A stretch of 64,000 nucleotides of DNA. Source: a phage. The notes beneath the pieces were generated by a model that was not told the origin of the DNA, did not search any database, and was given only the letters and a program-made list of their open reading frames with translations. Positions 786 to 58,836 of the stretch are shown piece by piece (the first letter of the stretch is position 1; the number at the start of each line of letters is the position of its first letter). The translations under genes were made by a program, and so were the position numbers. The DNA is taken from sequence record PZ445431.1, one strand, 5' to 3'.

Positions 786-794
786 TCTTGTTCC

Positions 795-3158: not shown

Positions 3159-3187
3159 TTGCCAACCTCTACTAAAAATAGTATAAT
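3159..3187 (+). promoter_or_regulatory. sigma70-type promoter (TTGCCA-N17-TATAAT)
   Basis: -35 at 3159-3164, -10 at 3182-3187. Confidence 0.55.
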
Positions 3188-3299
3188 CACGCATCCGTGT
3201 ACGCGATATAAAATGATTATCTAGTACCATACATCTCCCAATAAAAGCAAGCAAATTTTTTATTTAAATGCAATATCATAGGCTTATTTAAAATTGTAG

Positions 3300-3328
3300 T
3301 TGCTTTCTCCCGTATATATTGGTATAAT
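3300..3328 (+). promoter_or_regulatory. T5-type early promoter (TTGCTT-N17-TATAAT) upstream of phoH
   Basis: -35 at 3300-3305, -10 at 3323-3328. Confidence 0.65.
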
Positions 3329-3401
3329 ATATTTGTAAGTTGATAAACAAGATCTTTTTGTTGATCCTCTGTTAGCGAAGTACACTATAGGAGTGTTATT
3401 T

Positions 3402-4154
3402 ATGGGAAAAGCACGTCAAAAAAGAGAGAACCGCAATGGTTCAAGAAAGCGTGGCAACAAGTATGAGAGTAACGTAATTCAAGCAGATTTCTCTGGTGAT
3501 TACGCCAATCCAGTTGCTAAATCCCTAGTTGGTAAAAACCGTGAGCAAAAATCATATATCAATATGATCAAGAACAACACAGTGACTGTGGGTATTGGTG
3601 AACCAGGTACTGGTAAAACCTTTATTCCGTCCGTTCTTGCAGCTCAGGAACTCGTAGACATTCACTCAGATATTGAGCAAGTGATCCTCGTGCGTCCGAA
3701 CGAACCTCTAGGTAAATCTCTTGGTATGCTCCCAGGTGATCTGGCAGAAAAGCTAGAGCCTTGGTTGGAACCAATAACCGATGGTATGAAATGGGCAATC
3801 GGTGATCACGCCTACAAAGGATATGTCGAACGTCAGAAAATTAAATTCCTGGCTATCGAACATGCCCGTGGCCGAACTTTCAACAACTCCTATGTAATTG
3901 TCGATGAAGCTCAGAATATCTCCGTTGAAGCAATGATCTGTCTCCTGACTCGTGTAGGACAAGATTGTCGTTTAATTATCTGTGGGGATATAGCTCAGAA
4001 AGACATCAAGGGTGATTCAGGTCTAGCACTTCTTATGGAAGTCTATGAGAAGTACGAAAACTCTCCTTTCTCTATGATCGAACTGATCGACAACGTTCGC
4101 TCACCAGAGTCTAAAGCATTCTACGATATCTTTAAGGATATGGGGAAGGTGTAA
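3402..4154 (+). CDS. phoH: PhoH-like ATPase
   Basis: Walker A GEPGTGKTF and VIVDEAQN motif; start moved to ATG 3402 (RBS TAGGAG 9 nt upstream) rather than track start 3393. Confidence 0.85.
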   Translation: MGKARQKRENRNGSRKRGNKYESNVIQADFSGDYANPVAKSLVGKNREQKSYINMIKNNTVTVGIGEPGTGKTFIPSVLAAQELVDIHSDIEQVILVRPNEPLGKSLGMLPGDLAEKLEPWLEPITDGMKWAIGDHAYKGYVERQKIKFLAIEHARGRTFNNSYVIVDEAQNISVEAMICLLTRVGQDCRLIICGDIAQKDIKGDSGLALLMEVYEKYENSPFSMIELIDNVRSPESKAFYDIFKDMGKV

Positions 4155-4155
4155 T

Positions 4156-4398
4156 ATGGGAAACGTCGTACATCTGCACCGCAAAACTAAGATCCACCGT
4201 ACTTCACTGAGCGCTGCTAATATGATTACACGTAAGGAAGGGGAAGAAAGTCCTAAGACTACCCTAGCGTGGAAAATTGTAGCCTCTAATCCAAATCGGC
4301 CTTTCAACTATAATGAACTGAGTACTTCTATAGACATTCTTATGGCTAAGGAAATACAACAGAAACTAACTGATATGACCGATAAACTTAAATGGTAA
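4156..4398 (+). CDS. hypothetical protein (80 aa)
   Basis: ORF tightly coupled to phoH stop; followed by hairpin terminator. Confidence 0.5.
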   Translation: MGNVVHLHRKTKIHRTSLSAANMITRKEGEESPKTTLAWKIVASNPNRPFNYNELSTSIDILMAKEIQQKLTDMTDKLKW

Positions 4399-4405
4399 GA
4401 CAGAC

Positions 4406-4439
4406 GAGCCTGGGTATGAAAATATCCGGGCTCTTTTTA
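4406..4439 (+). terminator. rho-independent terminator candidate
   Basis: GAGCCTGG ... CCGGGCTC stem followed by TTTTTA. Confidence 0.6.
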
Positions 4440-4454
4440 TCTGTAAAATTGTAC

Positions 4455-4483
4455 TTGCAAAATGACCCAAAACAAAGTAGAAT
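4455..4483 (+). promoter_or_regulatory. promoter upstream of nrdA (TTGCAA-N17-TAGAAT)
   Basis: -35 at 4455-4460, -10 at 4478-4483. Confidence 0.55.
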
Positions 4484-4521
4484 ATTTCCTAAATCCTGAT
4501 AACTACAAAAAGGAAAGCCAA

Positions 4522-6855: not shown

Positions 6856-6864
6856 TAAAAACAA

Positions 6865-6890
6865 GGAGATCTTCGGGTCTCCTTTTTCTT
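6865..6890 (+). terminator. rho-independent terminator candidate
   Basis: GGAGAT-CTTCGG-GTCTCC hairpin followed by TTTTTCTTT. Confidence 0.6.
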
Positions 6891-6901
6891 TGAAATTTTA
6901 C

Positions 6902-6930
6902 TTGCTAATCGCTACCAGATTTGCTATAAT
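6902..6930 (+). promoter_or_regulatory. promoter (TTGCTA-N17-TATAAT) upstream of HNH/nrdB
   Basis: -35 at 6902-6907, -10 at 6925-6930. Confidence 0.65.
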
Positions 6931-6956
6931 ATCTCCATTAGTTAAGGAGATTAGTT

Positions 6957-7472
6957 TTGATAACACAAGATGAATTAAAAAGGATTCTGGAGTATAATCC
7001 AGATGAAGGAACATTTACTTGGTTAAATAACCAAGAAGTACACAATAAAGTAAGAGGACTACCTGCTGGTTGTTTAAAACCCCACTCAGTAGATCCTAAC
7101 CGAAAAGACTTAGTAATACAAATCAATGGTAAGAAATATCCTGCACAAAATATTGCTTTCCTGTACATGACAGGAAACTTACCTAAAGTTATGGTTGATC
7201 ATATAGATGGAGATTCACTAAACTATAAGTGGACTAATCTAAGAGAAGCAGACTGGCAGTTAAATAGTCAAAATAGAAAAACCAGTAAAAACAATATATT
7301 GGGTACTAAGAATATTCGGAAGAAAGGGTCTGGATTTCAAGTTAGAAAATCCATTAACGGAAAAGAATACGTGAAAACTCTTCCAACTCTCGAAGAGGCG
7401 ATAGAGTATCGAGATTCTTTAATCCTCTCTATAACCAAAGACCCAACACTACTTAGAAACACAGATAAATAG
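6957..7472 (+). CDS. HNH homing endonuclease with AP2-type DNA-binding domain (free-standing, between nrdA and nrdB)
   Basis: N-terminal ELK..LEYNPDEG.F.W motif, DHIDGD...N...NLR HNH core, AP2-like SGFQVRK..NGKEY; TTG start after AAGGAG; paralogous to 28254, 39420, 41576. Confidence 0.8.
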   Translation: MITQDELKRILEYNPDEGTFTWLNNQEVHNKVRGLPAGCLKPHSVDPNRKDLVIQINGKKYPAQNIAFLYMTGNLPKVMVDHIDGDSLNYKWTNLREADWQLNSQNRKTSKNNILGTKNIRKKGSGFQVRKSINGKEYVKTLPTLEEAIEYRDSLILSITKDPTLLRNTDK

Positions 7473-7480
7473 GAGAACTA

Positions 7481-8626
7481 ATGACAACTTTACTTAACTT
7501 AAACTGGGATCATACCAATAAAGATCTATTTCTCGGTGATTCTCTTGGTATTGCAGATTATGTACGAGTAGCTCATCCAGAGCTAGAAAGGCTGGCGTTA
7601 TTAGCTCGCTCTCAATTCTGGACTGAAACTGAAATCAGTCTGGAAGCTGATAAGAAACAATGGCCAAACCTTCCGCGTGATATTCAGGAAATTACTCTCC
7701 TGAACTTAGCATGGCAGACCCAAACAGATTCTTTCATTAGCCGTGCTCCTGAAGCAGCTATTATGCCGCTTGTAAGCCGTCCTGAATTGGAGGGTATGCT
7801 CAAGCAGTGGAGCTACTTCGAAGATCTGCATAGCCGTGCATATAGTAACATTATTCGTAACGTTCTGACTGATCCAGCAGAATTTATTGATTCTGTAACT
7901 AAAAACCAAGAAGCATTTGCACGTATCGCAGATTCTGTTGAACTGTTTGATGAATTGTATCTGTTAGGTCAGTATTTCCTTGCAGTACGTGATCATCGTG
8001 GTGATAATACTTATCCAGAAACTGAGTTCCCTGAAGTTAAACGTGAAACTCAGGCTAAGCTGTTAGATGCTTACTTTGCAATCTACGGTCTGGAAGCAAT
8101 GCAGTTCTACGCATCCTTTGCATGTACCTTTGCTCTAGCAGAGAACGATATTCTGCAAGGTATTGCCAAGAACCTGCAACTAATCGCTAAAGATGAAGCT
8201 CTACATACTCAAATGTCTAAAGCTATCATCCAGATTATGTTCCAGCAGTTTGATAAAGATCTGGTAGACGAAGCATTAGCTAAAGCACCAGCACAACTCC
8301 TAAAAACTCTGAAAACTGAGATTGAATGGGGCCACTTTATCTTTAAAGGCCGCAGTCTGATTGGTTTGAACGCAGAATTGCTTGAAGAATACCTTTACTT
8401 TGTAGGACGTAACGCATTTATGCACATTGGTGTAGAATGGCCAAGCCACTTACCTGTAATTACTAAGAACCCTATTCCGTGGATTATGAACTGGCTGGAT
8501 ACTACTTCCTTACAGCCTGCCCCACAAGAAATCCAGATTGGTGCAGCATATCGTGTGGGTCAGGTAACTGAAACTTCTGCTGATACCCTGAAAGATCTGG
8601 GTAACGAATTTGAGGGCATGTTCTAA
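7481..8626 (+). CDS. nrdB: ribonucleoside-diphosphate reductase small subunit (class Ia)
   Basis: 381 aa, di-iron RNR small-subunit layout, directly downstream of nrdA. Confidence 0.85.
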   Translation: MTTLLNLNWDHTNKDLFLGDSLGIADYVRVAHPELERLALLARSQFWTETEISLEADKKQWPNLPRDIQEITLLNLAWQTQTDSFISRAPEAAIMPLVSRPELEGMLKQWSYFEDLHSRAYSNIIRNVLTDPAEFIDSVTKNQEAFARIADSVELFDELYLLGQYFLAVRDHRGDNTYPETEFPEVKRETQAKLLDAYFAIYGLEAMQFYASFACTFALAENDILQGIAKNLQLIAKDEALHTQMSKAIIQIMFQQFDKDLVDEALAKAPAQLLKTLKTEIEWGHFIFKGRSLIGLNAELLEEYLYFVGRNAFMHIGVEWPSHLPVITKNPIPWIMNWLDTTSLQPAPQEIQIGAAYRVGQVTETSADTLKDLGNEFEGMF

Positions 8627-9156
8627 TGATAGCAGCAATCTATGCAACTGGGCCGAATGGGGAGTTCGGCCTCAATGGTAAGCTCCCCTGGGGTTCTTTC
8701 AAAGAAGAACTAGATATCTTCTATACTACTTTGGATTCTCTAGCACCTGATAATATTATTGTAGGTGCAGGAACTTGGTTAGCCTTCCCTGAGACTCTGC
8801 AAAAAAGAATACTAGGAGATTCTGACCTATTTATTTATGCAAATAGATCACTACCTAACTCTGTAGGATCAGCTACACGCATAAGCAACATTGGATACCG
8901 TCTGCCTGATTTTCTCAAGGAAGAGGTAACTGTAGTATTAGGGGGAGCAACTCTGCTTCTTGAAATGTATGTCAAAAATCATCTAGATATGGCGTATATC
9001 TCTACTATTACTTCAGCCACACCATTATCTGCTGATGTACATCTGCATCATCATATTACTTTAACTAATTCAATGGCAACTAGAATGGACTATGTGGCAG
9101 GACAGAATGCAGATAAAACGCTTTCATTCTTACAAGAATTGGTGATATTTAAATGA
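8626..9156 (+). CDS. frd: dihydrofolate reductase
   Basis: N-terminus [22 protein letters not shown] matches the DHFR signature; sits between nrdB and thymidylate synthase. Confidence 0.75.
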
Positions 9157-10007
9157 AGCAATATATTGAAACTGGAAAACGTATTCTTGAAGAGGGTGTA
9201 TGGGTAACGAATCCTAGAACAGGGGTTCGTTGCCTAACCATTATTGATGCAGACTTTACCTTTAACGTAGGAGCAGGAGAACTGCCGCTAGTAACTACTC
9301 GTAAAGCATTTGCTAAACAAGCAATAATGGAAATGATCGGATATCTCCGTGGGTACGACTCAGCAGCACAATTCCGCGCTATTGGTGTTAATACATGGAA
9401 TGCTAATGCAAATGAAAATATTGCCTGGCTAGGTAATCCATTCCGTAAAGGCGAGGATGATATGGGACGAGTCTATGGTGTTCAAGGACGTCATTGGACT
9501 AATTCTGATGGTATGGTATTTGATCAGTTAGCCAAAGTCTATCATAATTTGAAAAGAGGGATTGACGATCGTGGAGAAATTTTAACTTTTTGGAACCCTG
9601 GGGAATTTCGTAAAGGATGCCTACGTCCGTGTATGCATACCCATCAATTCTCTATTTTAGGTGATACACTATACCTAAACTCTTTCCAGAGGTCTAATGA
9701 TTTCTTGCTGGGCCAAGTATTTAATATGGTGCAATGCTATGCACTTCTAGCTATTATGGCACAGATTACAGGTCTTAAGCCAGGTATTGCTCGTCAAAAG
9801 ATTATTAATCTTCATATCTATGAAGATCAGTATAATGTTCTGATGGAGCACAAGCAATTCGATCGTGAACCTTTTGCACCTCCTACTTTAGAAATCAATC
9901 CAAATATTAGAACTTTGGATGATGTATTAACGTGGGTAAGTAAGGATGATTTTACTGTTCGTGGCTATGAACACCATCCTGCTATTGCATATCCATTTAC
10001 GGTGTAA
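9153..10007 (+). CDS. thyA: thymidylate synthase
   Basis: MKQY start, [14 protein letters not shown] (active-site Cys region), [24 protein letters not shown]; collinear with E. coli ThyA. Confidence 0.9.
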
Positions 10008-10055
10008 CATATATTAATTATACTATTATTTGTCATATTCTTTCTAAAACATTTT

Positions 10056-10364
10056 ATGGCCGATTATCCACTCCAAACACCATATATGCTAAAAAAGACG
10101 CATAAAATAGGGTGGAAACTTCCATTATTAACCCATTCGCTAGTACATGCTGGATTAACATTTGCAATTCTAATCCTATTCACATCACCAGGAATGTCTA
10201 TAGCTTTAGCTATTATGGAATTAATTCTACACTTTATTATAGATTATTGGAAAGCACAACGCTGTAAATACGCTATAAGCGATGCTAAGTTTTGGATAGC
10301 TTTAGGATTTGATCAGTTACTGCATTATCTGACATACGCCCTAATAATCTTGATTATAATCTAA
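10056..10364 (+). CDS. hypothetical membrane protein
   Basis: Highly hydrophobic 102 aa ORF; start may be the internal ATG near 10086. Confidence 0.5.
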   Translation: MADYPLQTPYMLKKTHKIGWKLPLLTHSLVHAGLTFAILILFTSPGMSIALAIMELILHFIIDYWKAQRCKYAISDAKFWIALGFDQLLHYLTYALIILIII

Positions 10365-10368
10365 TTCA

Positions 10369-10394
10369 AATAGCCCTTCGGGGCTATTATATTT
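10369..10394 (+). terminator. rho-independent terminator
   Basis: TAGCCC-TTCG-GGGCTA hairpin followed by T-rich tract. Confidence 0.7.
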
Positions 10395-10403
10395 AAATTT
10401 CAT

Positions 10404-10432
10404 TTGCTTACTGAGTGAAATTCAAATATAAT
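10404..10432 (+). promoter_or_regulatory. T5-type early promoter
   Basis: TTGCTT 10404-10409, TATAAT 10427-10432. Confidence 0.65.
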
Positions 10433-10462
10433 ATACTTCTAATTTGACAGAAGGATTTAATA

Positions 10463-11041
10463 ATGACAGCCATAGTAGCATTTAAATATAAAGATAAAGT
10501 ATACTTAGCCGGTGATCGTATGGGTTCTAATGGCTATACGAAACTGCTGGTTAAAAATCCGAAAGTATTCAAAATCTCTGATGATTTGTGCTTCGGATAC
10601 ACTAGTTCCTTCTACATGGGACAATTACTAGAGCATAGCTTTACTGTACCACCACGTTTAGCAGATATTTCTGATGATAAATATTTATATACGGAAATAG
10701 TACCTAAATTACGTGATATGTTTAACCAGAAAGATTTTGGCGAAAAGAAAAATGAAAAATATGCTGAACCTAATCTGGGACAATTTATTATGCTCTACAA
10801 AGGAAGAATCTTTATTTTCCAATCTAATGCTTCTATTCTAGAAGTTGAATATGCCGGTGTAGGCTGTGGAGGAGAAGATGTACTTTCCAGTATTCGTACA
10901 GGTTTAGCTATTGCGGATTGTCGAGCCACAGATTTAGATGTAGATGATATATTTGAAATCATTGATCTGGCTTTTACGCATTGTGCAGATTATATGTGTG
11001 GTGTATCTTCTCAACATGATATTTTAGTAATTGGAGAATAA
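10463..11041 (+). CDS. putative Ntn-hydrolase, HslV/proteasome-beta-like peptidase
   Basis: N-terminal MTAIVAFKYKDKVYLAGD (Thr2 after Met, as in HslV TTIVSVRR..V.IAGDGQ) and later YAGVGCGGEDV resembling the HslV GSGG motif; similarity judged by eye. Confidence 0.4.
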   Translation: MTAIVAFKYKDKVYLAGDRMGSNGYTKLLVKNPKVFKISDDLCFGYTSSFYMGQLLEHSFTVPPRLADISDDKYLYTEIVPKLRDMFNQKDFGEKKNEKYAEPNLGQFIMLYKGRIFIFQSNASILEVEYAGVGCGGEDVLSSIRTGLAIADCRATDLDVDDIFEIIDLAFTHCADYMCGVSSQHDILVIGE

Positions 11042-42088: not shown

Positions 42089-42686
42089 TGCGTGTTAAAT
42101 TCTGGTCGGATTTGCACTTAGACCACCCTGGAACTCTTCGCTTCCGTCCGTGGTTTAAGAATATGAAAGAACATGATGAATATATCCTAGATACTTTGTC
42201 CAAGCACATTGGCAAGCGTACTAAGCTCGTCTTGCTAGGGGATATTGCCGTGGGGCGTGAAGGGTTGGCTAAATTAAAGTCGGTTATCCACAATGTGCCT
42301 AACCAGTTAATCATGGGCAACCACGATGCTGAACGTCAGGGTCTGCATATTAAAGATCTTGTAGACGTTTATGATGATATTCAGGCTCTAGGTAAGCAAA
42401 CAGGTGGTGGCAAGAAGTTTTGGCTGTCACACTGTCACACTGTCCATTGCACGAAGCAGAACTTCGTGGTAAGCTAAACATTCACGGACATGTGCACACC
42501 AATTCTGTGCGCGACCCACGTTATATCAACATCTCTTTTGAGATGAGTAAGACTCCTATTCCTCTAGAAGATATTGTATCTGGCAAGTTCACAAGCTATG
42601 ATAGAGTAGTTAACTGCACTACTGGTGAAGTACTCCAAATCGATGAAGATGTGGCAGCAGTATTGAGGGGAGATATCAATGTTTGA
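42088..42686 (+). pseudogene. calcineurin-like metallophosphoesterase interrupted by a frameshift (8 bp tandem duplication)
   Basis: ORFs 42088..42477 (DLHLDH, GDIAVG, GNHD) and 42420..42686 (HGHVH) are two halves of one phosphoesterase; frames switch at CTGTCACA CTGTCACA (42424-42439); removing one copy restores ...FWLSHCPLHEAELRG... Confidence 0.65.
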
Positions 42687-49493: not shown

Positions 49494-49779
49494 AATCTCA
49501 TAGATTAAAAACATCAACTTGTTTTTACCTCTAGGCCGTAGATTTACATCATTCCTCGTAGGAAAACACTTGATGACGGTTCTGCTTGCAGGTTCTCGTC
49601 AATTGTTCTTCCTCCCCGAGACTCAGGAGGATGTATCAAATCGCGCGCGCCTAGAGGGGCTAACTCTCATGAAATGGGGGTATATTAACTTTTAAATAAC
49701 TAAAAATATTTAAAGGCAATATTTATGTTCAAGATGATACACCTGTTGCCGCTCATCTGCTAGGATGGCACAACACTTT

Positions 49780-49960
49780 CTTCTAGGCTCCTAAGTTTCT
49801 AGGAATAGTTAAGCACTAACTCTAGAGTTTACACTAAACTTTAAATCTGTTTCTCACACATTCTAGGGCAGTTTCTCTCCAACGTTACATATCCTAGGGC
49901 GGTTTCCTATACAGGGCGGTTATAGGGAGGGCGGTTATTTCTAGGAGACATTTTTTGAAA
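49780..49960. repeat. short direct repeats (TTTCTAGG x4-5, GGGCGGTT x3)
   Basis: CTTCTAGG, TTTCTAGG, CTAGGGCGGTT, CAGGGCGGTT, GGGAGGGCGGTT read directly. Confidence 0.8.
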
Positions 49961-49979
49961 ACACATTTCTGGAAATTAC

Positions 49980-50580
49980 TGTCGGATTTGCACATTACAT
50001 TTCTAGAAATTTATGGTCGGATTTGCACATTGATAGGAGTCTCCAAAGTTTTTAGGAACACTGAAAATAGCAGCATTATTTCGGGCCGAAGGCCCATATT
50101 TGCCTGAGTTTTTAGAGCCACAGGAATTTTCACTTGTCAAGCGATTTTGCCCCATTTTGCTAATAAAATTTCGCTTTATCTCCCCTAATCTCAATTCTAG
50201 CCAAAACATCCCGCATTATCCTCAAAAATGCAGCAAACCGGTGCTAAAGCACCATCACCGCTGCTCCTTCCGTAGTTCCTCCCAAAATCTCATCGGATTC
50301 GCACTTCTCCCCAAACTCACACAATCACACACCCTCTCATCGAAGTCACAAAAATCTTGTCGGATTTGCACACCTTAACACTTGTCGGATTTGCACATAC
50401 TCTAGTAAACCCAGCTGGATTGCATCGCAGTTGCGGATTGCTGGAGTTTTTAGGAAAATTCATTGTCGGATTTGCACACTATAAAAATTTTTCGGGTAGG
50501 ATTTGCACATTACCAAAAATTGTCGGATTCGCACATACACGCCAGCACGTAACCCATGGAGCAAATGTCGGATTTGCACA
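49980..50580. repeat. iteron array: about 9 direct copies of TGTCGGATTTGCACA (minor variants)
   Basis: Copies at about 49980, 50016, 50291, 50359, 50383, 50464, 50496, 50521, 50566, all same orientation, irregular spacing. Confidence 0.9.
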
Positions 50581-50599
50581 AAAGCGCAGGGCAATTTGC

Positions 50600-50755
50600 C
50601 CTGCCTGCCGAAATGCGAATGATAATGAGAATGATTCGCATTTGAGAAGTTGAATGCGAATGAGAACAGTTATCATTTGACTACCGGAATACGAATGAGA
50701 ATGATTTGCATTTAGGAAGGGAAACGCTAATAATAATGAGAATGACTCGCATTTA
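50600..50755. repeat. second iteron family AATGAGAATGA(T/C)T(C/T)GCATTT (3 full copies plus partial), each embedding short AATGCGAAT/ATTCGCATT inverted motifs
   Basis: Copies at about 50621, 50693, 50733 plus GCGAATGAGAACAG at 50664. Confidence 0.85.
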
Positions 50756-50786
50756 CAAAGCGAAGTGAGAAACACTGTTATTTAAG

Positions 50787-50856
50787 TTATCCACAGGTTT
50801 ATTAACAGCACGATCTGACTTGACAAAATCCTAGTGATTTTGAGGCGTTATCCACA
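50787..50856 (+). promoter_or_regulatory. two perfect DnaA boxes (TTATCCACA) in direct orientation
   Basis: TTATCCACA at 50787-50795 and 50848-50856. Confidence 0.8.
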
Positions 50857-50894
50857 GACTTATCAACAGGTTATTCTACTGTATATTTATACAG
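50848..50894. repeat. left arm of about 47 bp inverted repeat (partner 54593-54639)
   Basis: TTATCCACAGACTTATCAACAGGTTATTCTACTGTATATTTATACAG versus reverse complement of 54593-54639, about 90% identical. Confidence 0.8.
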
Positions 50895-50926
50895 TATTCC
50901 TGCGTAGTGAATAACTCTAATATAGC

Positions 50927-50957
50927 TCTAAAACGCTCTCAAACGCGTTCTAACGCG
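50927..50957. repeat. direct repeat copy 1 (TCTAAAACGCTCTCAAACGCGTTCTAACGCG); partner at 55019-55050
   Basis: Same orientation, about 27/31 matches to 55019-55050. Confidence 0.8.
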
Positions 50958-51041
50958 TTTATTTTTGGGGGAGGTATTTTAATAAGGGGAAATTTGAGGA
51001 AGGCCAGAAAAGACGGGGCCGATAGTTGCGCCCCGTTATTA

Positions 51042-51236
51042 TTAGTCTGGTAGTCGATGTGTGATCTTTTCGCTTTCGCCGTAGGAGTCTACCAAATGTT
51101 GATAGTAACCATCGTTATCATAAATCACTTTATCATAATCGCCACGCTCCACCGCTTGCCGATTTTCCAGCGTATCAGGCACAAAGAAAGTATCAACGGT
51201 AACAGTAGTTTTAGTTACAACAATTTTATCACTCAT
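51042..51236 (-). CDS. hypothetical protein (64 aa), pre-early-region leftward operon
   Basis: ORF in leftward gene string. Confidence 0.45.
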   Translation of the reverse strand: MSDKIVVTKTTVTVDTFFVPDTLENRQAVERGDYDKVIYDNDGYYQHLVDSYGESEKITHRLPD

Positions 51237-51366
51237 AACGCCATTGCTCCTAGAATGAGAATGATTATCAATATCATTGTGAAGCCATTACCAAATCGTA
51301 AACGCTGGGAATGTTTCCCAGCGGTATTATTAGATTTATGGCTTTGTGTTTTTCGCCACCAGCTAT

Positions 51367-51579
51367 TCACGGTTTTAAATTCTCTATAGTTAATTTTGCG
51401 CGAATAGTGATTCCATATAATTCGCCTCCCTTGTTTCTTACATCAGGTAGCCAGTCCCACAATTCATGGTATCCGCTTAAAATTCCTAGCGATGCAAGAT
51501 TAGCAATAAAACCGGCTATAGTAACCGCTTCCAGTGAAATAGTTACACGATTATTAATAACTAAAGTAAACTTTTTCAT
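51367..51579 (-). CDS. hypothetical protein (70 aa)
   Basis: ATGA-coupled to upstream gene. Confidence 0.5.
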   Translation of the reverse strand: MKKFTLVINNRVTISLEAVTIAGFIANLASLGILSGYHELWDWLPDVRNKGGELYGITIRAKLTIENLKP

Positions 51580-51920
51580 TGCGCCACCTTTCGAAACGCT
51601 GTTTCGATACTTTCAGCGGTTGATTGAATATACGCGCCTTTCATAATTAGACGCTCCGTACATACTTTGCGGAAAATGAAAATGAATTCATTTTCATTTT
51701 CCGCTATTAACGCTTCCCCCATAACCTGAACGTCACAAGACCCAAAAGTTAAAAATTGAAACGCTAGTTCACGGGCGACAACGGCAGAAATTTTATAATG
51801 TGCTTTGCCCTCATAGATATTAACCACGCCTTTATAAACAGGGGAAAGCTGATTTAAATAGTTTGCTAATAATGCCGGACGGCAATTAGTTACAAAGCGA
51901 TTGCCCTCATAAATAACCAT
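51576..51920 (-). CDS. hypothetical protein (114 aa)
   Basis: ORF in leftward gene string. Confidence 0.55.
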   Translation of the reverse strand: MVIYEGNRFVTNCRPALLANYLNQLSPVYKGVVNIYEGKAHYKISAVVARELAFQFLTFGSCDVQVMGEALIAENENEFIFIFRKVCTERLIMKGAYIQSTAESIETAFRKVAQ

Positions 51921-52026
51921 TAAATGATCCTCGCATCACGGATAACCATAATCACTAGCGTGATCAACATTGCAGCACTAGACACGCCACAAACAAAAGT
52001 TAGCATTTTAACAATTGCCCCTTCCA

Positions 52027-52239
52027 TTATAACACCCCACGAAAAGCAGCGTAAAAAGTAGCAAAGTGTTTAACCGTTTCGGCTATCAAATTGCCGCGCT
52101 TGTCAAATTTCTTTTCTGTAACACGGAAAGCGTTTTTGTTGCGTGCTACATATTCTATTTTACAATCTGGACGCTCGAAGGTGTTAACATCCACCAGCTT
52201 AAAACCTTTAGAACGGGCAAGGGAAACATTTTTTAACAT
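52027..52239 (-). CDS. hypothetical basic protein (70 aa)
   Basis: ORF in leftward gene string. Confidence 0.5.
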   Translation of the reverse strand: MLKNVSLARSKGFKLVDVNTFERPDCKIEYVARNKNAFRVTEKKFDKRGNLIAETVKHFATFYAAFRGVL

Positions 52240-52245
52240 TTTTAT

Positions 52246-52395
52246 TCCCCTTTACCAGTCATACAGCCCAACAAGTAAGAAAACCCCGCGATACCTGCTC
52301 CAATAATAACCACGTGAACGCCGAAAGCTATTACAAACAGCGATAAAATAGCGCCCAAGATACTAGCCAGAATAGATCGAAAAATAACCATTTTA
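52246..52395 (-). CDS. possible small membrane protein (49 aa)
   Basis: Minus-strand ATG at 52395 followed by two hydrophobic segments; not in track. Confidence 0.35.
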
Positions 52396-52437
52396 TTAGC
52401 TCCTAGAAATTAGGGGATAATATATCCCCTTTAATAA

Positions 52438-52665
52438 TTACATTAAAACAATTTTTACCGCTTGCTTTTTGGTGCAGTGGTTAGTTTTCAATTCATCCAA
52501 CAAAAAGCCCGCCGTTTGCTGGTCAATCTTGTCATTGTCATAAAGTTCCTGAATGGTAACATAAGTTTTACCTATGCCGAACTCAGAAACCATAACGCTG
52601 ACAATAGCGGGAACGGATACCCATTCCATACCGTTAAAAATTGCAGAAGATGATGAATGTACCAT
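52438..52665 (-). CDS. hypothetical protein (75 aa)
   Basis: ORF in leftward gene string. Confidence 0.5.
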   Translation of the reverse strand: MVHSSSSAIFNGMEWVSVPAIVSVMVSEFGIGKTYVTIQELYDNDKIDQQTAGFLLDELKTNHCTKKQAVKIVLM

Positions 52666-52772
52666 TTTAACGCCTCCTAGAAATCAGGGAAAATTTTCAA
52701 TCCACCGTTTCGGTGTAAAGGCATTATAACAAAAAAGGCCACCATAATAGGCGACCTTTACAAAACTTTACA

Positions 52773-53294
52773 TTAGACTATTTCTAATGCTTCCACACCG
52801 AAACAGCGTTTTAGTTCTTTCTGTAAAACTGCATATTCATCCCAACGGGAATTATCAGGAATATAAACAAGCTGTTTTAATCGATTTGCATATAATAACG
52901 CCTTGTTACCAATTATTTCCGCGCCACCGTGTTTAATAATTAGTTTCATAACGGTATTAATAGGATCGCCGCCATTTACATAAGTACCGGACTTACTCAA
53001 TTGATAATGATAAATACTCGCATATACATTATCATTTTCAATCCATTCCCCTGTTTCTTCATCTTCTTCCCCATCGCTACCGAAACGAGAAGCATTATCA
53101 TATGCGTGTTCGTTTGCGAAAGCGTCCAGATCACAGCCAGCGGGAACAAAATGTTCCTCCGTCCAGCCCTCCCCGCAATAGCCAGTATGACAATCAACTA
53201 AAACGATCATATCGTGCTTAGCTTCATTCACACTTTCTAGTGAAAATCCATACTTGCAAACACTATCACGCTCAATAATTAATTTACTAAACAT
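52773..53294 (-). CDS. hypothetical acidic protein (173 aa)
   Basis: Cys/His cluster (CHTGYCGEGW...GC) followed by strongly acidic tract GSDGEEDEETGEWIEND. Confidence 0.6.
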   Translation of the reverse strand: MFSKLIIERDSVCKYGFSLESVNEAKHDMIVLVDCHTGYCGEGWTEEHFVPAGCDLDAFANEHAYDNASRFGSDGEEDEETGEWIENDNVYASIYHYQLSKSGTYVNGGDPINTVMKLIIKHGGAEIIGNKALLYANRLKQLVYIPDNSRWDEYAVLQKELKRCFGVEALEIV

Positions 53295-53347
53295 AATTAG
53301 TCTCCTAACTAAAAGGGAAAGCGGGGATTATTCCCCACTAGTAATTA

Positions 53348-54343
53348 TTATTCACTTTCGGTGTTAGTGGTAAAGGTAGAAATGTCAATACCTTTTACCA
53401 TTTCGTCGATCATTTCAGCAATATTGAAACTCTGTACCATTTCCAACATTGCCGCTTCCATTGCCGCGCCTGCTACCGCTTTCGCTTTCTGATTAGTCGG
53501 GGCGTACTGGTCAACTGCTACGCTTAACAGGTTAGCGATCACTATACGACCAATCGGCGTATCGATATAACCTTTAATCATAAACGGCGCTTTTTTCGCC
53601 GCTACTTTCGTGATTTGAGTTAATGCAATTTTACCCGCTTCCAGTTTTGCAGCATTTACAACAGCGGATTTATTAGCAGCAACGATAGAAGATACTTTAG
53701 TCATGATATTTCCTTTATTTTCAGTAGTTTGCGCATTTGCGCTTGAAGTTTGAGAGTTTACAGCCTGTTTTGCTACGTTGTCAACTGGTTTTAGTGTAAA
53801 TCCAGCGTTTGCAACGTTTGATTCATTCCCATACTCTAAATAATCGTTAGGGATCAACATGTTACCGCTAGCGCGTTCAAAACACAATACGCCAGTTGTT
53901 TCGATTGCGTCACTATCCGCACGTTTAATGGCGCTTGTCAATTCGCCCCAAATGCTAGACAGTAAATCTTCTACATCTCTGGAATTAATACCATTTACGC
54001 GAGTAGCGAAAACCATTTCTTTTTCTTGTACATTGTAACCACGGGCAATATAGCTTTTTTCGTCGTGACCTACAATGATAAAATCAATATCGCTTCCCCG
54101 CTGATTTCGTATGATGTGATAGTCACGGTTGTAAAGCACTAGAACGCGGCTAGGGTCTAGTAATAGCGTGAAATCATCGACTGAATAATGAGTATCATTA
54201 TTATCTAAAATATCATCGTGAATCTTTTCAACCATTGCCACCGTATGTTGTAGGCTTGCTGGACTTGATCCGTCTAGCAGGTTGCGCAAAATACCCTTAA
54301 TAATAGTGGCGTTTGCTGGTACTGCAATTCTTACAGTAGACAT
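53348..54343 (-). CDS. hypothetical protein (331 aa), first gene of leftward pre-early operon
   Basis: Longest ORF of the block; GGAGAC RBS; Ala/Lys-rich C-terminal half. Confidence 0.6.
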   Translation of the reverse strand: MSTVRIAVPANATIIKGILRNLLDGSSPASLQHTVAMVEKIHDDILDNNDTHYSVDDFTLLLDPSRVLVLYNRDYHIIRNQRGSDIDFIIVGHDEKSYIARGYNVQEKEMVFATRVNGINSRDVEDLLSSIWGELTSAIKRADSDAIETTGVLCFERASGNMLIPNDYLEYGNESNVANAGFTLKPVDNVAKQAVNSQTSSANAQTTENKGNIMTKVSSIVAANKSAVVNAAKLEAGKIALTQITKVAAKKAPFMIKGYIDTPIGRIVIANLLSVAVDQYAPTNQKAKAVAGAAMEAAMLEMVQSFNIAEMIDEMVKGIDISTFTTNTESE

Positions 54344-54592
54344 TTCTTTGTCTCCCTCGTTAATCGGTGAGTGAATGATATAGATAATTGTTCGCTATGG
54401 GCAAGAAAAAAGAAAAGGTTTTTTATTCCTTGCCTAACGCTTGTTTTTATGATACCCGCGTGTTTTCTATTTCTAGCTCTCTGTAAGCGTACACAAGGCT
54501 TTATTATAATAAGGGTAGCAGTGAGAAAACGCCGTGTAGCGTGTTCTAGACCTCTTAAATTTGATTGCGGTTGTTACTGCTACCATTCTACC

Positions 54593-54639
54593 CTGTATAT
54601 TTATACAGTAGGATAACCTGTATATAAGTCTGTGGATAA
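54593..54639. repeat. right arm of about 47 bp inverted repeat (partner 50848-50894), containing a DnaA box
   Basis: CTGTATATTTATACAGTAGGATAACCTGTATATAAGTCTGTGGATAA. Confidence 0.8.
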
Positions 54640-54688
54640 GTCGCCAAATCGTCGCCTATTACGTCAAGTTATTTTGTGCTGTGGATAA
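54631..54688 (-). promoter_or_regulatory. two perfect DnaA boxes (TGTGGATAA on + strand = TTATCCACA on - strand)
   Basis: TGTGGATAA at 54631-54639 and 54680-54688; partial boxes at about 54611 and 54965. Confidence 0.8.
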
Positions 54689-55018
54689 CTTTGGGGATAA
54701 GTTAAATGATAGTGGTTCTCACTTAGCCCGATAGTTTCTCATAGTTATTATTTCTCTTTAATTTATAAGTATATTATATAATATGAAATAGTTAGTTGGC
54801 TAATAGGTTTTTAGAGTATTAATAGTCTGCTAATAATAACGCATGTTACAATCCACCAGCGTGATTATCATCCTAGCGACTATTAGCGTGCTAATGACCT
54901 GATACACGTCCAGACTTATTTGTCAATGAAAAATAATAGCAGAAAATACTTTTTTGAAAAATCAAGTGGATAACTCATTAAATTTCATTTTTGCTTTTTG
55001 TATAAGTTATTAACAGGG

Positions 55019-55050
55019 TCTAAAACGCTCTGTAACGCATTCTAAGCGCC
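55019..55050. repeat. direct repeat copy 2 (TCTAAAACGCTCTGTAACGCATTCTAAGCGCC)
   Basis: Matches 50927-50957 in the same orientation. Confidence 0.8.
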
Positions 55051-55351
55051 TCAAAGGAAAAGATAGGCAATCATAAGGAGTACACCGAGAAAACCTCACC
55101 ACTAGCGAAATAAGTTTTGTCAAGTACCCCAAAGCAGATATAAATGAAAAAATTACTTGCTAAAATGGTTGTTTTGATGTTATTCGCGCGCCCGTTTCAT
55201 TTAATTTTAGGCAGTCGCTGGACGTGGTGCGGTGGCGTTTGTCCTTACGTTTCTTTACAAAAATAAGGTTGCGCCCTTCTCGGTATTCTCCTATTATTTA
55301 TCACGTAGGGCGGCAATGACGAACTACACGGCGGAGAAGTTTACCACCGCG

Positions 55352-55388
55352 CTCTTTAAAAACTAGGGAACATCTTAAAGCCTATCGG
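55352..55388. repeat. left arm of 37 bp near-perfect inverted repeat
   Basis: CTCTTTAAAAACTAGGGAACATCTTAAAGCCTATCGG; reverse complement matches 55795-55831 at 36/37. Confidence 0.9.
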
Positions 55389-55421
55389 CGGTAAACTTAT
55401 ATAATATAAGGAATCGACGAT

Positions 55422-55580
55422 ATGACAACAATATTTAACGATCATCCAGCTACCCACGACACGATCGAAAAAATCGAACAATGGGTAAAGACTGCAAATG
55501 AATACTATGCTAATCATTCGGAAGCGGTAATAATCTGCAATGATGGGAATGGTTTATATGCTTTGGAGGATCTCAAATGA
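55422..55580 (+). CDS. hypothetical small protein (52 aa) inside the IR-flanked cassette
   Basis: ATG after TATATAATATAAGGAATCGACGAT; ATGA-coupled to the next ORF; not in track. Confidence 0.45.
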   Translation: MTTIFNDHPATHDTIEKIEQWVKTANEYYANHSEAVIICNDGNGLYALEDLK

Positions 55581-55786
55581 AACAAACGCTTTTGATCACT
55601 GGCAAGCCTATCAAGTCACTTGATAGCAGAACAAAAAATTTGTTGATAGTAGCGCAAAAATCGGTAAAATACCGATTCAAGCAGTACAAGAAAGGAAGGC
55701 AGCAAGGTCTGGAAATGGTGTGGCGTAATATAATGATTGATTTATATAACTCCCATCAAATCGAAAAAAGTTTAAAAAACGCTTGA
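55577..55786 (+). CDS. hypothetical basic protein (69 aa) inside the IR-flanked cassette
   Basis: ORF track; Lys/Arg-rich. Confidence 0.5.
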   Translation: MKQTLLITGKPIKSLDSRTKNLLIVAQKSVKYRFKQYKKGRQQGLEMVWRNIMIDLYNSHQIEKSLKNA

Positions 55787-55794
55787 TACGCTAG

Positions 55795-55831
55795 CCGATA
55801 GGTTTTAAGATGTTCCCTAGTTTTTAAAGAG
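55795..55831. repeat. right arm of 37 bp near-perfect inverted repeat
   Basis: CCGATAGGTTTTAAGATGTTCCCTAGTTTTTAAAGAG. Confidence 0.9.
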
Positions 55832-56017
55832 CGATAACTTGATAAAATTTGACGGTCGGCACTTACCATAATGTGCCCCGCCCCCTAACTGGGATATAGC
55901 GGCCCGCGTGGAGTTCTTTAAATTTATTATACTGGCGAGCGGATTATAATCTAATAGCGTTTCAACGTATCGAGGCGCTATTGTGGAATAATCCCCCAAT
56001 AAACCGGAGTATTAAAA

Positions 56018-56269
56018 ATGCAAAACGTTATTACCGCGCCGAAAGTAGGTCAATCTGTTTTCATTCCTTTTGTAACTAAAACGGATGAATTAACCGGAAA
56101 AGCCGAACGTATTAAAGGTGTGGCGCTTGATCCTTTCGATAAAATCGAAGCGGTATACGCGGAAACGGAACGGAGTAACAACGGCAAGCCAATTTATAAC
56201 GTTCGCGTTAAATCCGGCGACGTTGTAAAGATCATTCAGAAAGATGATAAATGGCAAGCTATTAGCTAA
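56018..56269 (+). CDS. hypothetical protein (83 aa)
   Basis: ORF with GGAG RBS. Confidence 0.55.
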   Translation: MQNVITAPKVGQSVFIPFVTKTDELTGKAERIKGVALDPFDKIEAVYAETERSNNGKPIYNVRVKSGDVVKIIQKDDKWQAIS

Positions 56270-56368
56270 TTAGTGCTAACTTTATATTCCCCTGAAATAT
56301 GGGGAATATATGGATTAACATTAGTTAATCATAATCCCTTAATTAATAATTGAATGGAGTATTAAATT

Positions 56369-56785
56369 ATGTCTAACGTTAAAACCGAAAAAGCCGCAAA
56401 ATTCGCATGGAATGAAGAAAACACTGAAAAAGCCGTTTCTATGTATTCTGAAATGGTCGCTAAAAGCGGAATTGAATTTGCTAACACTGACGGCTTAAAA
56501 GAAATCGCCGCCGCCGTTGGCGCGGCTTCTCCCGTGTCTGTTCGCTCAAAATTGACCAGCGCAAAAGCCTACCAGAAAAGCGATAAACCTCGCAAAGTTG
56601 GCGGTGGTAGCTCAATCCGTAAAGCTCACTATGTGCGCGTCATTGCTAAACATGCCATTGATAGCGGCATTGTAAAAGACGCCGACGATCTGGCAAGTCT
56701 GGAAAGCGCAAAATTGGAAACGCTGGACGCCGTAGCGCAATTGTTAGGCGTAGCGGAGGAAGTAAAACAGGCCGCAGGCGAATAA
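56369..56785 (+). CDS. hypothetical protein (138 aa)
   Basis: ORF with GGAG RBS. Confidence 0.55.
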   Translation: MSNVKTEKAAKFAWNEENTEKAVSMYSEMVAKSGIEFANTDGLKEIAAAVGAASPVSVRSKLTSAKAYQKSDKPRKVGGGSSIRKAHYVRVIAKHAIDSGIVKDADDLASLESAKLETLDAVAQLLGVAEEVKQAAGE

Positions 56786-57171: not shown

Positions 57172-58836
57172 ATGAATATTTCCGCAGAAAAACAGTCTCA
57201 GATCAATAAACTTGCCGCCGACTTTAATTTCTACGGTAAGCGTTTACGCGCTACCAAACTTGAAGTTTGCGACGATATTTCAAAAGCTGTATATGATACG
57301 CCGAAACATTCAACGGCAATTTGTGACTGGTTGGAAGCAAATAAGCCAGCGAAACCGAAGGCAGCGAAAGCTGTAAAAGCCATTAAAAACGATGATCGCC
57401 CCGAAGCGGCGGGGATCGTTTCTAGCACGGTTGAGCAATGGGAAGTTAAATCCGGTCGCCGTTTTATTCTAACGTCGATTCAAAATAATACTTTCCCGCA
57501 CAAAAACTTTTTGAAAGCGCTTGAGCAATACGCTAGTTATTATGGCGCTGAATTGCTTGTTAGCAAATTCATTTACAACAAAAACGGATTTCAGAATGGG
57601 GAAGGCGGCGAAAAAATCAAATATGATCCCGCATTTGATAAATATATTTGTGAGAAAAACGTATTTTTAAATAATCGCCGCTTTGCTTTCATGGCTGAAA
57701 TTAACGTATTACCAACGGCAGATTATCCGCTTTCAGGATTCGCAGAAACTGCCACCGCTTTAAATATTGAAGGTCTGGCAATTGGTCACGCAAAAATTAC
57801 CGCTGAAAGTGTGCCAGCGTTAAAAGGTGAAGTAGTGCGCCGTATGTACTCCACCGGAACGGCTACGCTTAAAAACTACATTCAGCAGAAAGCAGGTCAA
57901 AAAGCTGAGGCGCTGCATAATTACGGCGCTTTGCTGGTAGAATTTGACGACGACGGCGAATTTTTTGTTCGCCAGCTTGAGACAATGGATGAAAGCGGGA
58001 TGTTTTATGATTTGAATATTTGCGCTATACCAACCGGATGTTTCAAAACATCTGATCATGTTTTAGGTTTGCAATATGGCGATATTCACGCCGAAAAATT
58101 AGATGATGATTGCGCTGTTGCATCATGGGTGGGCGAAAATAGCTTGCTTGATATTCTTAAACCAAAATATCAGTTTATCCATGATGTGCATGATTTTACA
58201 TCGCGTAACCATCATAATCGCGCCTCTGGTGTATTCCTAGCTAAACAGTACGCCGCCGGACGTGATAAAGTTATTGATGATCTTATCGATACTGGACGTG
58301 TATTAGAATCAATGGAGCGCGATTTTTCTCAAACAATCATCGTGGAATCCAATCATGATTTGGCGTTATCCCGTTGGCTTGACGATCGCAACGCTAATAT
58401 TAAAGACGATCCCGCAAACGCCGAACTGTATCACAGCCTAAACGCCGCTATTTATGCAGCTATTGCAAAACAAGATGATACCTTTAACGTATTGGATTAC
58501 GCGCTTAGAAACGTTGCAGGTTGCGAATTTAACGCTATTTTTCTGACTACTGACCAATCTTTCAAGATTGCAGGAATTGAATGCGGCGTACACGGTCACA
58601 ATGGCATTAACGGCAGTCGGGGCAATCCTAAGCAGTTTAAGAAACTTGGACGCCTCAACACTGGCCATACTCACACGGCGAGCATTTACGGTGGCGTGTA
58701 TACCGCTGGCGTTGCTGGTAGTCTCGATATGGGTTACAACGTGGGCGCGTCAAGCTGGACGCAAACGCATTTAATTACCTATGCAAACGGGCAACGTACT
58801 TTGATTGATTTCAAAAACGGTAAATTCTTTGCATAG
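57172..58836 (+). CDS. A1: A1-like pre-early protein (metallophosphoesterase-type)
   Basis: 554 aa with GDIHAE, ESNHD, GVHGHNG, NTGHTHT phosphoesterase-like motifs; size and position next to a dmp-like gene match T5 A1. Confidence 0.6.
   Translation: MNISAEKQSQINKLAADFNFYGKRLRATKLEVCDDISKAVYDTPKHSTAICDWLEANKPAKPKAAKAVKAIKNDDRPEAAGIVSSTVEQWEVKSGRRFILTSIQNNTFPHKNFLKALEQYASYYGAELLVSKFIYNKNGFQNGEGGEKIKYDPAFDKYICEKNVFLNNRRFAFMAEINVLPTADYPLSGFAETATALNIEGLAIGHAKITAESVPALKGEVVRRMYSTGTATLKNYIQQKAGQKAEALHNYGALLVEFDDDGEFFVRQLETMDESGMFYDLNICAIPTGCFKTSDHVLGLQYGDIHAEKLDDDCAVASWVGENSLLDILKPKYQFIHDVHDFTSRNHHNRASGVFLAKQYAAGRDKVIDDLIDTGRVLESMERDFSQTIIVESNHDLALSRWLDDRNANIKDDPANAELYHSLNAAIYAAIAKQDDTFNVLDYALRNVAGCEFNAIFLTTDQSFKIAGIECGVHGHNGINGSRGNPKQFKKLGRLNTGHTHTASIYGGVYTAGVAGSLDMGYNVGASSWTQTHLITYANGQRTLIDFKNGKFFA

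What the first reader, a model, noticed from the sequence alone, without database searches (positions are those of the whole stretch)
50787..54688. DnaA-box pairs and about 47 bp inverted repeats bracket a 3.4 kb leftward operon
Perfect TTATCCACA boxes at 50787 and 50848 and their complements at 54631 and 54680 sit in modules that are inverted copies of each other (50848-50894 versus 54593-54639, about 90% identity), flanking the minus-strand operon 51042-54343. A second module (50927-50957 and 55019-55050) is repeated in direct orientation. The arrangement resembles an origin-like or DnaA-titrating structure, or the ends of a mobile or invertible segment.
Basis: seen in the sequence. Interest (0 to 1): 0.65.

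Follow-up and report, generated by a model that had tools for sequence, protein, structure and literature searches.

The report
T5-type injection-stop inverted repeats
The DnaA-box inverted repeats are real, but they are the already described IRC/IRD modules in the terminal repeat of T5-like phages, proposed but never shown to halt the first step of DNA injection.

Summary
The window is Escherichia phage TrudiRoth (Bas30, Epseptimavirus, T5-like), read in reverse of the T5 map. Four perfect TTATCCACA boxes sit in two inverted modules, which are 135 bp long (50760-50894 and 54593-54727, 77% identical), not 47 bp. They bracket the leftward operon 51042-54343.

By direct alignment the modules are T5's annotated inverted repeats C/D (6022-6152) and D'/C' (9332-9462). 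Both lie inside the roughly 10 kb terminal repeat. They flank the pre-early genes T5.011-017 and open the non-coding injection-stop (iss) region. Published work already describes this structure, its eight DnaA-type boxes in pairs 3 bp apart, and a model in which DnaA arrests DNA transfer. No experiment has tested that model.

I found the module in 537 phage records. At the four box positions, 22-24 of 24 arms fit the DnaA consensus within one mismatch.

The origin, transposon and programmed-switch readings fail: no unwinding element, no replication genes, no recombinase, no transposase.

One addition: in Sugarlandvirus and Pectobacterium phage My1 the gene block between the arms is homologous but inverted, while the arms keep their orientation. 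The literature I could read calls it "replaced".

Verdict: real, conserved, already known. Low interest.

The parts
50760..50894 (+). Left arm. Homologue of T5 IRD'-spacer-IRC' (T5 9332-9462), the first element of the non-coding injection-stop region (Repeat Region 3).
   Evidence: blastn to T5, T5 GenBank annotation, arm-to-arm alignment, nhmmer E 1e-39.
54593..54727 (-). Right arm. Homologue of T5 IRC-spacer-IRD (T5 6022-6152, Repeat Region 2). It lies between the two divergent pre-early gene sets, on the A2 side.
50787..50807 (+). DnaA-box pair: TTATCCACA-GGT-TTATTAACA.
   Evidence: column conservation.
50848..50868 (+). DnaA-box pair: TTATCCACA-GAC-TTATCAACA, followed by a third TTAT unit (TTATTCTAC, 50871-50879).
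54619..54639 (-). DnaA-box pair, read on the minus strand: TTATCCACA-GAC-TTATATACA.
54680..54700 (-). DnaA-box pair, read on the minus strand: TTATCCCCA-AAG-TTATCCACA.
50879..50894 (.). Near-palindrome CTGTATATTTATACAG (T5 palindrome D) at the inner end of the left arm. An identical copy lies at 54593-54608.
   Evidence: (D15, 100% identical).
51042..54343 (-). Pre-early operon between the arms (homologues of T5.011-T5.017). It includes DUF7566 (53348-54343) and the 70-aa T5.015-type AP-site nicking endonuclease (52027-52239). No recombinase is present.
51004..51034 (-). Hairpin plus T-run that terminates the operon (aligns with T5 palindrome C / terminator, 9194-9213).
   Evidence: sequence; alignment; T5 annotation.
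50925..50957 (+). Three tandem 10-mers (consensus CTCTAAAACG), just inside the left arm.
   Evidence: (D5).
55017..55050 (+). Second copy of the 10-mer module, in direct orientation. It corresponds in position to T5 inverted repeat B (5285-5310).
50610..50771 (.). Cluster of AATGAGAATGATTCGCATT repeats and palindromes (T5 direct repeat C, palindromes E-I). The T5 shear point for first-step DNA (about 9618) falls in the matching T5 region.
   Evidence: (D1-D3); shear-point position taken from Davison.
50584..50591 (.). GCGCAGGG, homologue of the T5 'major single-stranded nick 1, 7.9%' site (T5 9661-9668), beside hairpin 50586-50604.
49981..50580 (+). Eight copies of GTCGGATTTGCACA (T5 direct repeat D), all on one strand. 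Each contains ATTTGCACA, one mismatch from the DnaA consensus. The array straddles the inferred inner end of the terminal repeat (about 50110-50115).
   Evidence: (D4, D6).

Best explanation
Identity (about 0.97). These are the two conserved cis-acting modules of the terminal repeat of T5-like phages, named IRC-spacer-IRD and IRD'-spacer-IRC' in T5. In the virion the terminal repeat is present at both genome ends, so each genome carries four modules.

Geometry (inferred by homology to T5). DNA enters the cell from the dmp end, near window 60.5 kb, and travels towards 50.1 kb. The right arm enters first, then the pre-early operon, then the left arm. Transfer pauses just beyond the left arm, in the repeat and palindrome cluster at about 50.6 kb.

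Most likely mechanism (about 0.4, inferred, not shown). Each arm presents two tandem pairs of DnaA-type boxes 61 bp apart. These load host DnaA and build a nucleoprotein complex on the incoming DNA. The other conserved arm elements and the adjacent repeats probably contribute. The two arms may be bridged, looping out the operon. [quoted passage not shown]

What is shown here: homology, position, box statistics and conservation. What is inferred from the literature: DnaA binding, the arrest and the release.
For: The window is 100% identical to phage TrudiRoth.

The arms align with T5's annotated inverted repeats C/D and D'/C'. The flanks are collinear: A2, A1 and dmp on one side, early genes on the other.

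Both arms lie inside the terminal repeat under every homology-mapped boundary (window 50110-50585).

The module occurs in 537 phage records. It is usually present twice per record, or four times when both terminal repeats were deposited.

In 24 arms from 12 phages, 22-24 of 24 fit TTWTNCACA within one mismatch at each of four fixed positions. The background rate is 0.14% per position. 46 of 96 boxes are perfect TTATCCACA. The spacer is the least conserved part, at 0.73 against 0.88-0.97.

The arms keep their position and orientation relative to A2 even where the intervening genes are flipped. This argues that they act relative to the genome end rather than on the operon's promoter.

The structure and the DnaA model are published: Davison, bioRxiv 10.1101/866236.
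Against: No experiment links DnaA to these sites. A 2023 paper states that experimental studies of their role are lacking. 2026 papers still describe the stop signal only as a repeat-rich region.

The DnaA boxes are not the best-conserved part of the arm. The outer block AGTGAGAA.CACT, the third unit TTATCCTAC and palindrome D are equally or more conserved. Another protein could therefore be the main ligand.

Half of the boxes deviate from the strict consensus.

Priunavirus-type phages have only one arm. Pairing of two arms therefore cannot be essential across the family.

Confidence: 0.5

Rival explanations
1. The arms are binding sites for phage proteins, chiefly the A2 dimer or the A1-A2 complex. 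These would use the arms to restart transfer, or to cut or join the terminal repeats. The DnaA-box resemblance would be secondary.
For: Several conserved arm elements are not DnaA boxes: the dyad-like AGTG-AGAAA-CACT, the central TTGAC, and TTATCCTAC plus palindrome D. A2 is a DNA-binding dimer required for second-step transfer (Davison).
Against: The recurrent exact 9/9 match to the E. coli R1/R4-type box is hard to ascribe to chance. The same holds for the way perfect and near-perfect boxes swap among the four positions in different phages. The two readings are not exclusive.
Confidence: 0.2
2. The arms are DnaA-dependent transcription elements or a DnaA sink. As roadblocks or insulators they would frame the pre-early operon, or they would titrate DnaA to help shut down host initiation.
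For: One arm sits between the divergent pre-early promoters and the other lies just past the operon terminator. Boxes are enriched.
Against: In Sugarlandvirus and My1 the operon is flipped while the arms stay put. The arms are therefore not tied to that promoter or terminator. From general knowledge, 16 boxes per genome is few beside the roughly 300 chromosomal boxes, and the host DNA is degraded within minutes anyway.
Confidence: 0.15
3. The arms form a DnaA-dependent replication origin in the terminal repeat.
For: DnaA boxes are clustered. The stretch 54600-55000 beside the right arm is moderately AT-rich, at 31% GC against about 39%.
Against: E. coli-type 13-mers are not enriched or clustered (38 found, 50.7 expected). 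There are no replication genes nearby. The T5 origins were mapped near the genome centre, and the replication genes arrive only with second-step DNA (Davison). The AT-rich stretch coincides with the T5 pre-early promoter region.
Confidence: 0.04
4. The arms are the ends of a mobile element, or the sites of a programmed inversion switch that flips the operon within a phage population.
For: A 135-bp inverted repeat brackets a gene block. That block is found in both orientations among genera. The 2-nt centre of palindrome D toggles between AA and TT among close relatives.
Against: There is no transposase or invertase. The bases just outside the two arms show no target-site duplication. The arms are orthologous and fixed in 537 records. 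Orientation is uniform within every genus sampled: 29 Tequintavirus/Epseptimavirus-type loci are all divergent. About 100 bp inside the left arm stays on the left in Sugarland, so the breakpoints are not demonstrably within the arms.
Confidence: 0.05

Closest known systems
Bacteriophage T5 inverted repeats C/D and D'/C' (IRC-spacer-IRD, T5 6022-6152; IRD'-spacer-IRC', T5 9332-9462). Sources: Heusterspreute et al. 1987 Gene 52:155; the annotation of AY587007; Davison, bioRxiv 10.1101/866236.
   Same: Direct sequence homology (75-80% identity). Same place between A2 and the early genes inside the terminal repeat. Same bracketing of T5.011-017. Same box pairs 3 bp apart. Same palindrome D at the inner ends. 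Same downstream repeat families.
   Different: TrudiRoth has all eight boxes, four of them perfect, whereas T5 has seven. The arms are 3.7 kb apart in TrudiRoth and 3.2 kb in T5. TrudiRoth lacks the HNH insertion that splits T5 Repeat Regions 1 and 2.
E. coli oriC and other chromosomal DnaA-box clusters (datA, DARS)
   Same: Clusters of R1/R4-type boxes in tandem with fixed short spacing. This is the resemblance Davison points out.
   Different: There is no unwinding element and no replication context. The spacing is 3 bp rather than the 2 bp of the oriC arrays (my own knowledge). The arm shows no sequence similarity to any of 5,426 E. coli genomes.
Invertible DNA segments (Hin, Gin, Cin, Fim type)
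   Same: An inverted repeat brackets a gene block that is found in both orientations among related genomes.
   Different: No recombinase gene is present. The arms are 135 bp at 77% identity rather than short exact crossover sites. Both orientations are seen only between genera.

Membership tests
T5-family IRC/IRD terminal-repeat modules (iss-associated) | Sequence homology to the T5 repeats C/D and D'/C' | tested here: met
   blastn gives 75% identity over 132-133 nt for both cross-matches and a collinear 79% match for the iss side. nhmmer gives E 1e-39 and 8e-37.
T5-family IRC/IRD terminal-repeat modules (iss-associated) | Both arms lie inside the terminal repeat. One is next to the A2-side pre-early genes. 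The other is at the start of the large non-coding region before the early genes. | tested here: met
   Gene order is established. Boundaries mapped from T5, Stitch, saus132, pork29 and Seafire all fall to the left of the left arm. The true TrudiRoth ends were not determined, because the record is permuted with a collapsed repeat.
T5-family IRC/IRD terminal-repeat modules (iss-associated) | Four pairs of DnaA-type boxes, the two boxes of each pair 3 bp apart, at fixed positions | tested here: met
   The two pairs within each arm start 61 bp apart.
T5-family IRC/IRD terminal-repeat modules (iss-associated) | Acts as the injection stop signal, or binds DnaA | not testable with these tools
   The literature states that there are no experimental data.
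DnaA-dependent replication origin | AT-rich unwinding element with 13-mer-type repeats next to the boxes | tested here: not met
   38 matches to GATCTNTTNTTTT at up to 2 mismatches, against 50.7 expected, with no cluster at the arms. GC dips only to 31%.
DnaA-dependent replication origin | Initiation mapped at the site | not testable with these tools
   The literature places the T5 origins near the genome centre.
Site-specific invertible switch | Recombinase gene in or beside the segment | tested here: not met
   Pfam and PHROGs scans of nine proteins found only DUF7566 and the T5.015-type nicking endonuclease.
Site-specific invertible switch | Both orientations among close relatives or within a population | tested here: not met
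   All 29 Tequintavirus/Epseptimavirus-type loci and 10 fetched relatives are collinear. The inverted form is seen only in other genera. Read-level data were not available.
Transposon or IS element | Transposase plus target-site duplication outside the terminal inverted repeats | tested here: not met
   No transposase. The bases outside the arms do not repeat...ACAAAGC before the left arm and CCGATAG... after the right arm.

The most novel reading that the evidence does not exclude
The two arms may be a recombinationally active pair. Exchange between them, or hairpin or cruciform events at palindrome D, would have flipped the pre-early operon at least once and possibly twice in the history of the Demerecviridae. 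It might still do so at low frequency. If so, the arms are both an inversion substrate and, when bridged by DnaA, the physical loop or knot that stops DNA entry.
Probability: 0.12. Interest if true: 0.6.

Novelty: already known. Interest (0 to 1): 0.25.

Why it matters
How T5 stops DNA transfer after 8% of its genome is a question more than 50 years old, and these modules are the leading candidate for the stop signal. This window adds another well-preserved example, with all eight boxes intact, in a phage of the BASEL collection that laboratories can obtain.

The one new observation concerns the genes between the arms. They are flipped in two other genera, yet the arms hold their orientation relative to the genome end. 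This suggests that the arms act by position in the incoming DNA rather than on the neighbouring promoters. That narrows the models worth testing.

Tried and rejected
- **Extension of the inverted repeat.** I tested whether the repeat extends inward to include the 10-mer module (T5 repeat B'). In TrudiRoth the inner flanks do not align above chance (scores 17-18 against 14 +/- 2.5). In Sugarland both inner flanks do carry it.
- **Rfam.** A scan of 49500-56500 found nothing.
- **E. coli genomes.** The arm has no match. Only the 10-mer module matches.
- **E. coli 13-mer search.** No enrichment.
- **Terminal-repeat inner end.** I could not fix it exactly. Annotations in relatives map to three different window positions: 50110-50115, 50322-50324 and 50585. 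The last coincides with the T5 nick site.
- **Number of inversion events.** A neighbour-joining tree of A1 implies two events, but its key nodes have only 72-82% bootstrap support. I claim only one or more.
- **Davison 2015 (Bacteriophage 5:e1086500).** The paper is not held. I could not check whether it already calls the My1 and Sugarland arrangement an inversion.
Full report
**Source of the window**

Bases 50300-55400 are 100% identical to Escherichia phage TrudiRoth (Bas30, MZ501109.1; Demerecviridae, Epseptimavirus). That record is circularly permuted, starts at the terminase gene, and holds a single collapsed copy of the terminal repeat. Window position equals record position minus 50970.

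The genes A2 (56369-56785), A1 (57172-58836) and dmp lie on the plus strand to the right of the finding. The window therefore reads in reverse of the standard T5 map.

**Check of the observation**

The window holds five against 0.68 expected, and no shuffle in 100 reaches five. The fifth box, at 42284, is inside a Ser/Thr phosphatase gene and is probably chance.

The 47-bp core is 42/47 identical. The real inverted repeat is longer: 50760-50894 against 54593-54727, with 105 matches in 137 columns. Its score is 109, against 19 +/- 2.4 for shuffles.

Each arm carries two tandem pairs of boxes 3 bp apart:
- Left arm: TTATCCACA-GGT-TTATTAACA and TTATCCACA-GAC-TTATCAACA.
- Right arm, read on the minus strand: TTATCCCCA-AAG-TTATCCACA and TTATCCACA-GAC-TTATATACA.

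The direct repeat 50927-50957 / 55019-55050 is also real. It is an array of three 10-mers.

**What it is**

The T5 GenBank record AY587007 annotates the following:
- inverted repeat C, 6022-6060
- inverted repeat D, 6112-6152
- inverted repeat D', 9332-9372
- inverted repeat C', 9424-9462
- the left terminal repeat, 1-10139
- a major nick at 9661-9668

By blastn, window 54834-54580 matches T5 5942-6164, and window 51018-49721 matches T5 9208-10535. Each arm also cross-matches the other T5 arm. The operon between the arms matches T5 ORF011-017 in the same order and orientation.

The right arm is therefore IRC-spacer-IRD. The left arm is IRD'-spacer-IRC', which opens the large non-coding region thought to hold the injection stop signal.

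The sequence to the left of the left arm reproduces the other T5 repeat families:
- the AATGAGAATGATTCGCATT palindrome cluster, 50610-50771
- the nick-site homologue GCGCAGGG, 50584-50591
- eight copies of GTCGGATTTGCACA, 49981-50580

Terminal-repeat ends annotated in T5 and Stitch map to window 50110-50115. Those of saus132 and pork29 map to about 50322. That of Seafire maps to 50585. All of these lie to the left of the left arm, so both arms are inside the repeat.

**What is already published**

Davison's preprint (10.1101/866236) describes this 131-bp inverted repeat pair in 25 T5-like phages. It reports the eight DnaA or DnaA-like boxes in pairs 3 bp apart and the constant spacer. It proposes that membrane-bound DnaA holds the incoming DNA at these boxes until A1 and A2 release it. 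The first DnaA box was reported in 1987, as cited.

A 2023 paper on BF23 says experimental studies of these sites are lacking. Two 2026 papers still describe the stop signal only as a repeat-rich non-coding region. The finding is therefore a rediscovery.

**Conservation**

The left arm finds 537 phage records, and 524 of them cover at least 80% of it. There are typically two places per record, or four when both terminal repeats were deposited.

I aligned 24 arms from 12 phages of Tequintavirus, Epseptimavirus and Sugarlandvirus plus Serratia phage Slocum. At the four box positions, 23, 22, 23 and 24 of 24 arms fit TTWTNCACA within one mismatch. The background rate is 0.14% per position. 46 of 96 boxes are perfect. 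Which position holds the perfect box differs between phages.

The spacer is the least conserved segment (0.73). However, the outer block AGTGAGAA.CACT, a central TTGAC, a third unit TTATCCTAC (0.97) and palindrome D (0.93) are conserved as well as or better than the boxes. DnaA need not be the only ligand.

- Origin. E. coli-type 13-mers are not enriched (38 against 50.7 expected) and none cluster at the arms. GC falls only to 31% beside the right arm, in the region that in T5 holds the pre-early promoters. The published T5 origins are central.
- Mobile element or switch. The nine proteins between the arms match only DUF7566, the T5.015-type AP-site nicking endonuclease and families of unknown function. 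No target-site duplication is visible.
- Host origin of the arm. The arm has no counterpart in 5,426 E. coli genomes.
- Structured RNA. Rfam finds nothing.

**An addition: the gene block is inverted in two genera**

In Klebsiella phages Sugarland and Shiner, and in Pectobacterium phage My1, clear homologues lie between the two arms. DUF7566 matches at E about 1e-36 to 1e-48. The 173-aa protein matches at E 1e-10 to 1e-18. There is also a distal small protein. The internal gene order is the same, but the block is in the opposite orientation relative to A2 and the early genes.

Serratia phage Slocum, Pantoea phage AAS21 and Providencia phage PSTCR5 have the T5 orientation.

A census of IMG/VR loci gave these counts:
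- 29 Tequintavirus/Epseptimavirus-type loci, T5 orientation
- 3 Priunavirus-type loci, T5 orientation
- 6 loci, inverted orientation

In every case the arms keep their orientation relative to A2.

The preprint describes this region in those phages as replaced by other sequences read in the opposite direction. At the protein level it is an inversion.

A neighbour-joining tree of A1 would require two events, but its support is only 72-82%, so I claim at least one. About 100 bp just inside the left arm stays on the left in Sugarland. The breakpoints therefore cannot be placed within the arms, and the arms are not shown to have mediated the flip.

**Mechanism**

I commit to the following. The arms are platforms for a nucleoprotein complex, most probably involving host DnaA, that acts by its position in the entering DNA. 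The arms stay fixed while the genes between them flip. This speaks against a role tied to the operon's promoter or terminator and for a role tied to the genome end.

Homology, position and box conservation are shown here. DnaA binding, the arrest and the release by A1 and A2 are inferred. I put identity at about 0.97 and this mechanism at about 0.4. The main rival is binding of the phage proteins A2 or A1-A2 to the non-DnaA conserved elements, and the two are compatible.

**Verdict**

The feature is real, strongly non-random, conserved across the family and already described. Interest is low for the finding as stated. The inverted gene block is a small new point that deserves a proper phylogenetic treatment.

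Noticed in passing
L007 5515-9660 (Sugarland), L013 (Shiner), L016 7741-11914 (My1); compare window 50760-54727: The pre-early gene block between the two arms (DUF7566, the 173-aa protein, distal small proteins) is homologous but inverted in Sugarlandvirus and My1 relative to T5 and TrudiRoth. The arms keep their orientation. The preprint I could read calls the region 'replaced'.
   Followed up: yes
window 50886-50887 and 54600-54601; 24 arms: The 2-nt centre of palindrome D (CTGTATA-NN-TATACAG) toggles between AA (13 arms) and TT (10 arms), even among close relatives and between the two arms of one phage. A repeated double transversion looks more like a flip of the hairpin loop than point mutation.
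   Followed up: partly
window 49981-50580: The eight GTCGGATTTGCACA repeats (T5 direct repeat D) all face the same way. Each contains ATTTGCACA, one mismatch from the DnaA consensus TTWTNCACA. The array runs across the inferred inner end of the terminal repeat.
   Followed up: partly
A very similar array of 3-4 copies lies in a roughly 2-kb non-coding stretch of a prophage-like element in about 559 of 5,426 E. coli genomes. This hints at a shared DNA-binding factor.
   Followed up: partly
window 50585-50588: The terminal-repeat end that PhageTerm predicted for Salmonella phage Seafire maps onto the homologue of the T5 7.9% nick site. The T5 and Stitch repeat ends map elsewhere (50110-50115). 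The Seafire boundary may be a nick misread as a terminus.
   Followed up: partly
window 51669-51704: A perfect 36-bp palindrome (GCGGAAAATGAAAATGAA / TTCATTTTCATTTTCCGC) lies inside the 114-aa pre-early gene and encodes AENENEFIFIFR. Nine relatives have only an imperfect version, so TrudiRoth looks like a case of quasi-palindrome correction.
   Followed up: partly
window 51042-51236 (minus strand): A 64-aa ORF matches phrog_6973 (E 7e-40) and is 80% identical to a T5 ORF at 8875-9066, yet it is not annotated in the TrudiRoth record. The window also runs about 480 bases past the end of the deposited linear record, consistent with a circular permutation.
   Followed up: partly
L058-L077 (IMG/VR contigs): The C-terminal ~120 residues of the DUF7566 protein have homologues in 20 viral contigs that lack A1, A2 and the arms. 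This domain is therefore not confined to T5-like phages.
   Followed up: no
window 42284-42292: The fifth perfect DnaA box of the window lies inside a Ser/Thr phosphatase gene, 170 bp from a near-copy of the direct repeat D motif (42105). It is probably chance.
   Followed up: partly
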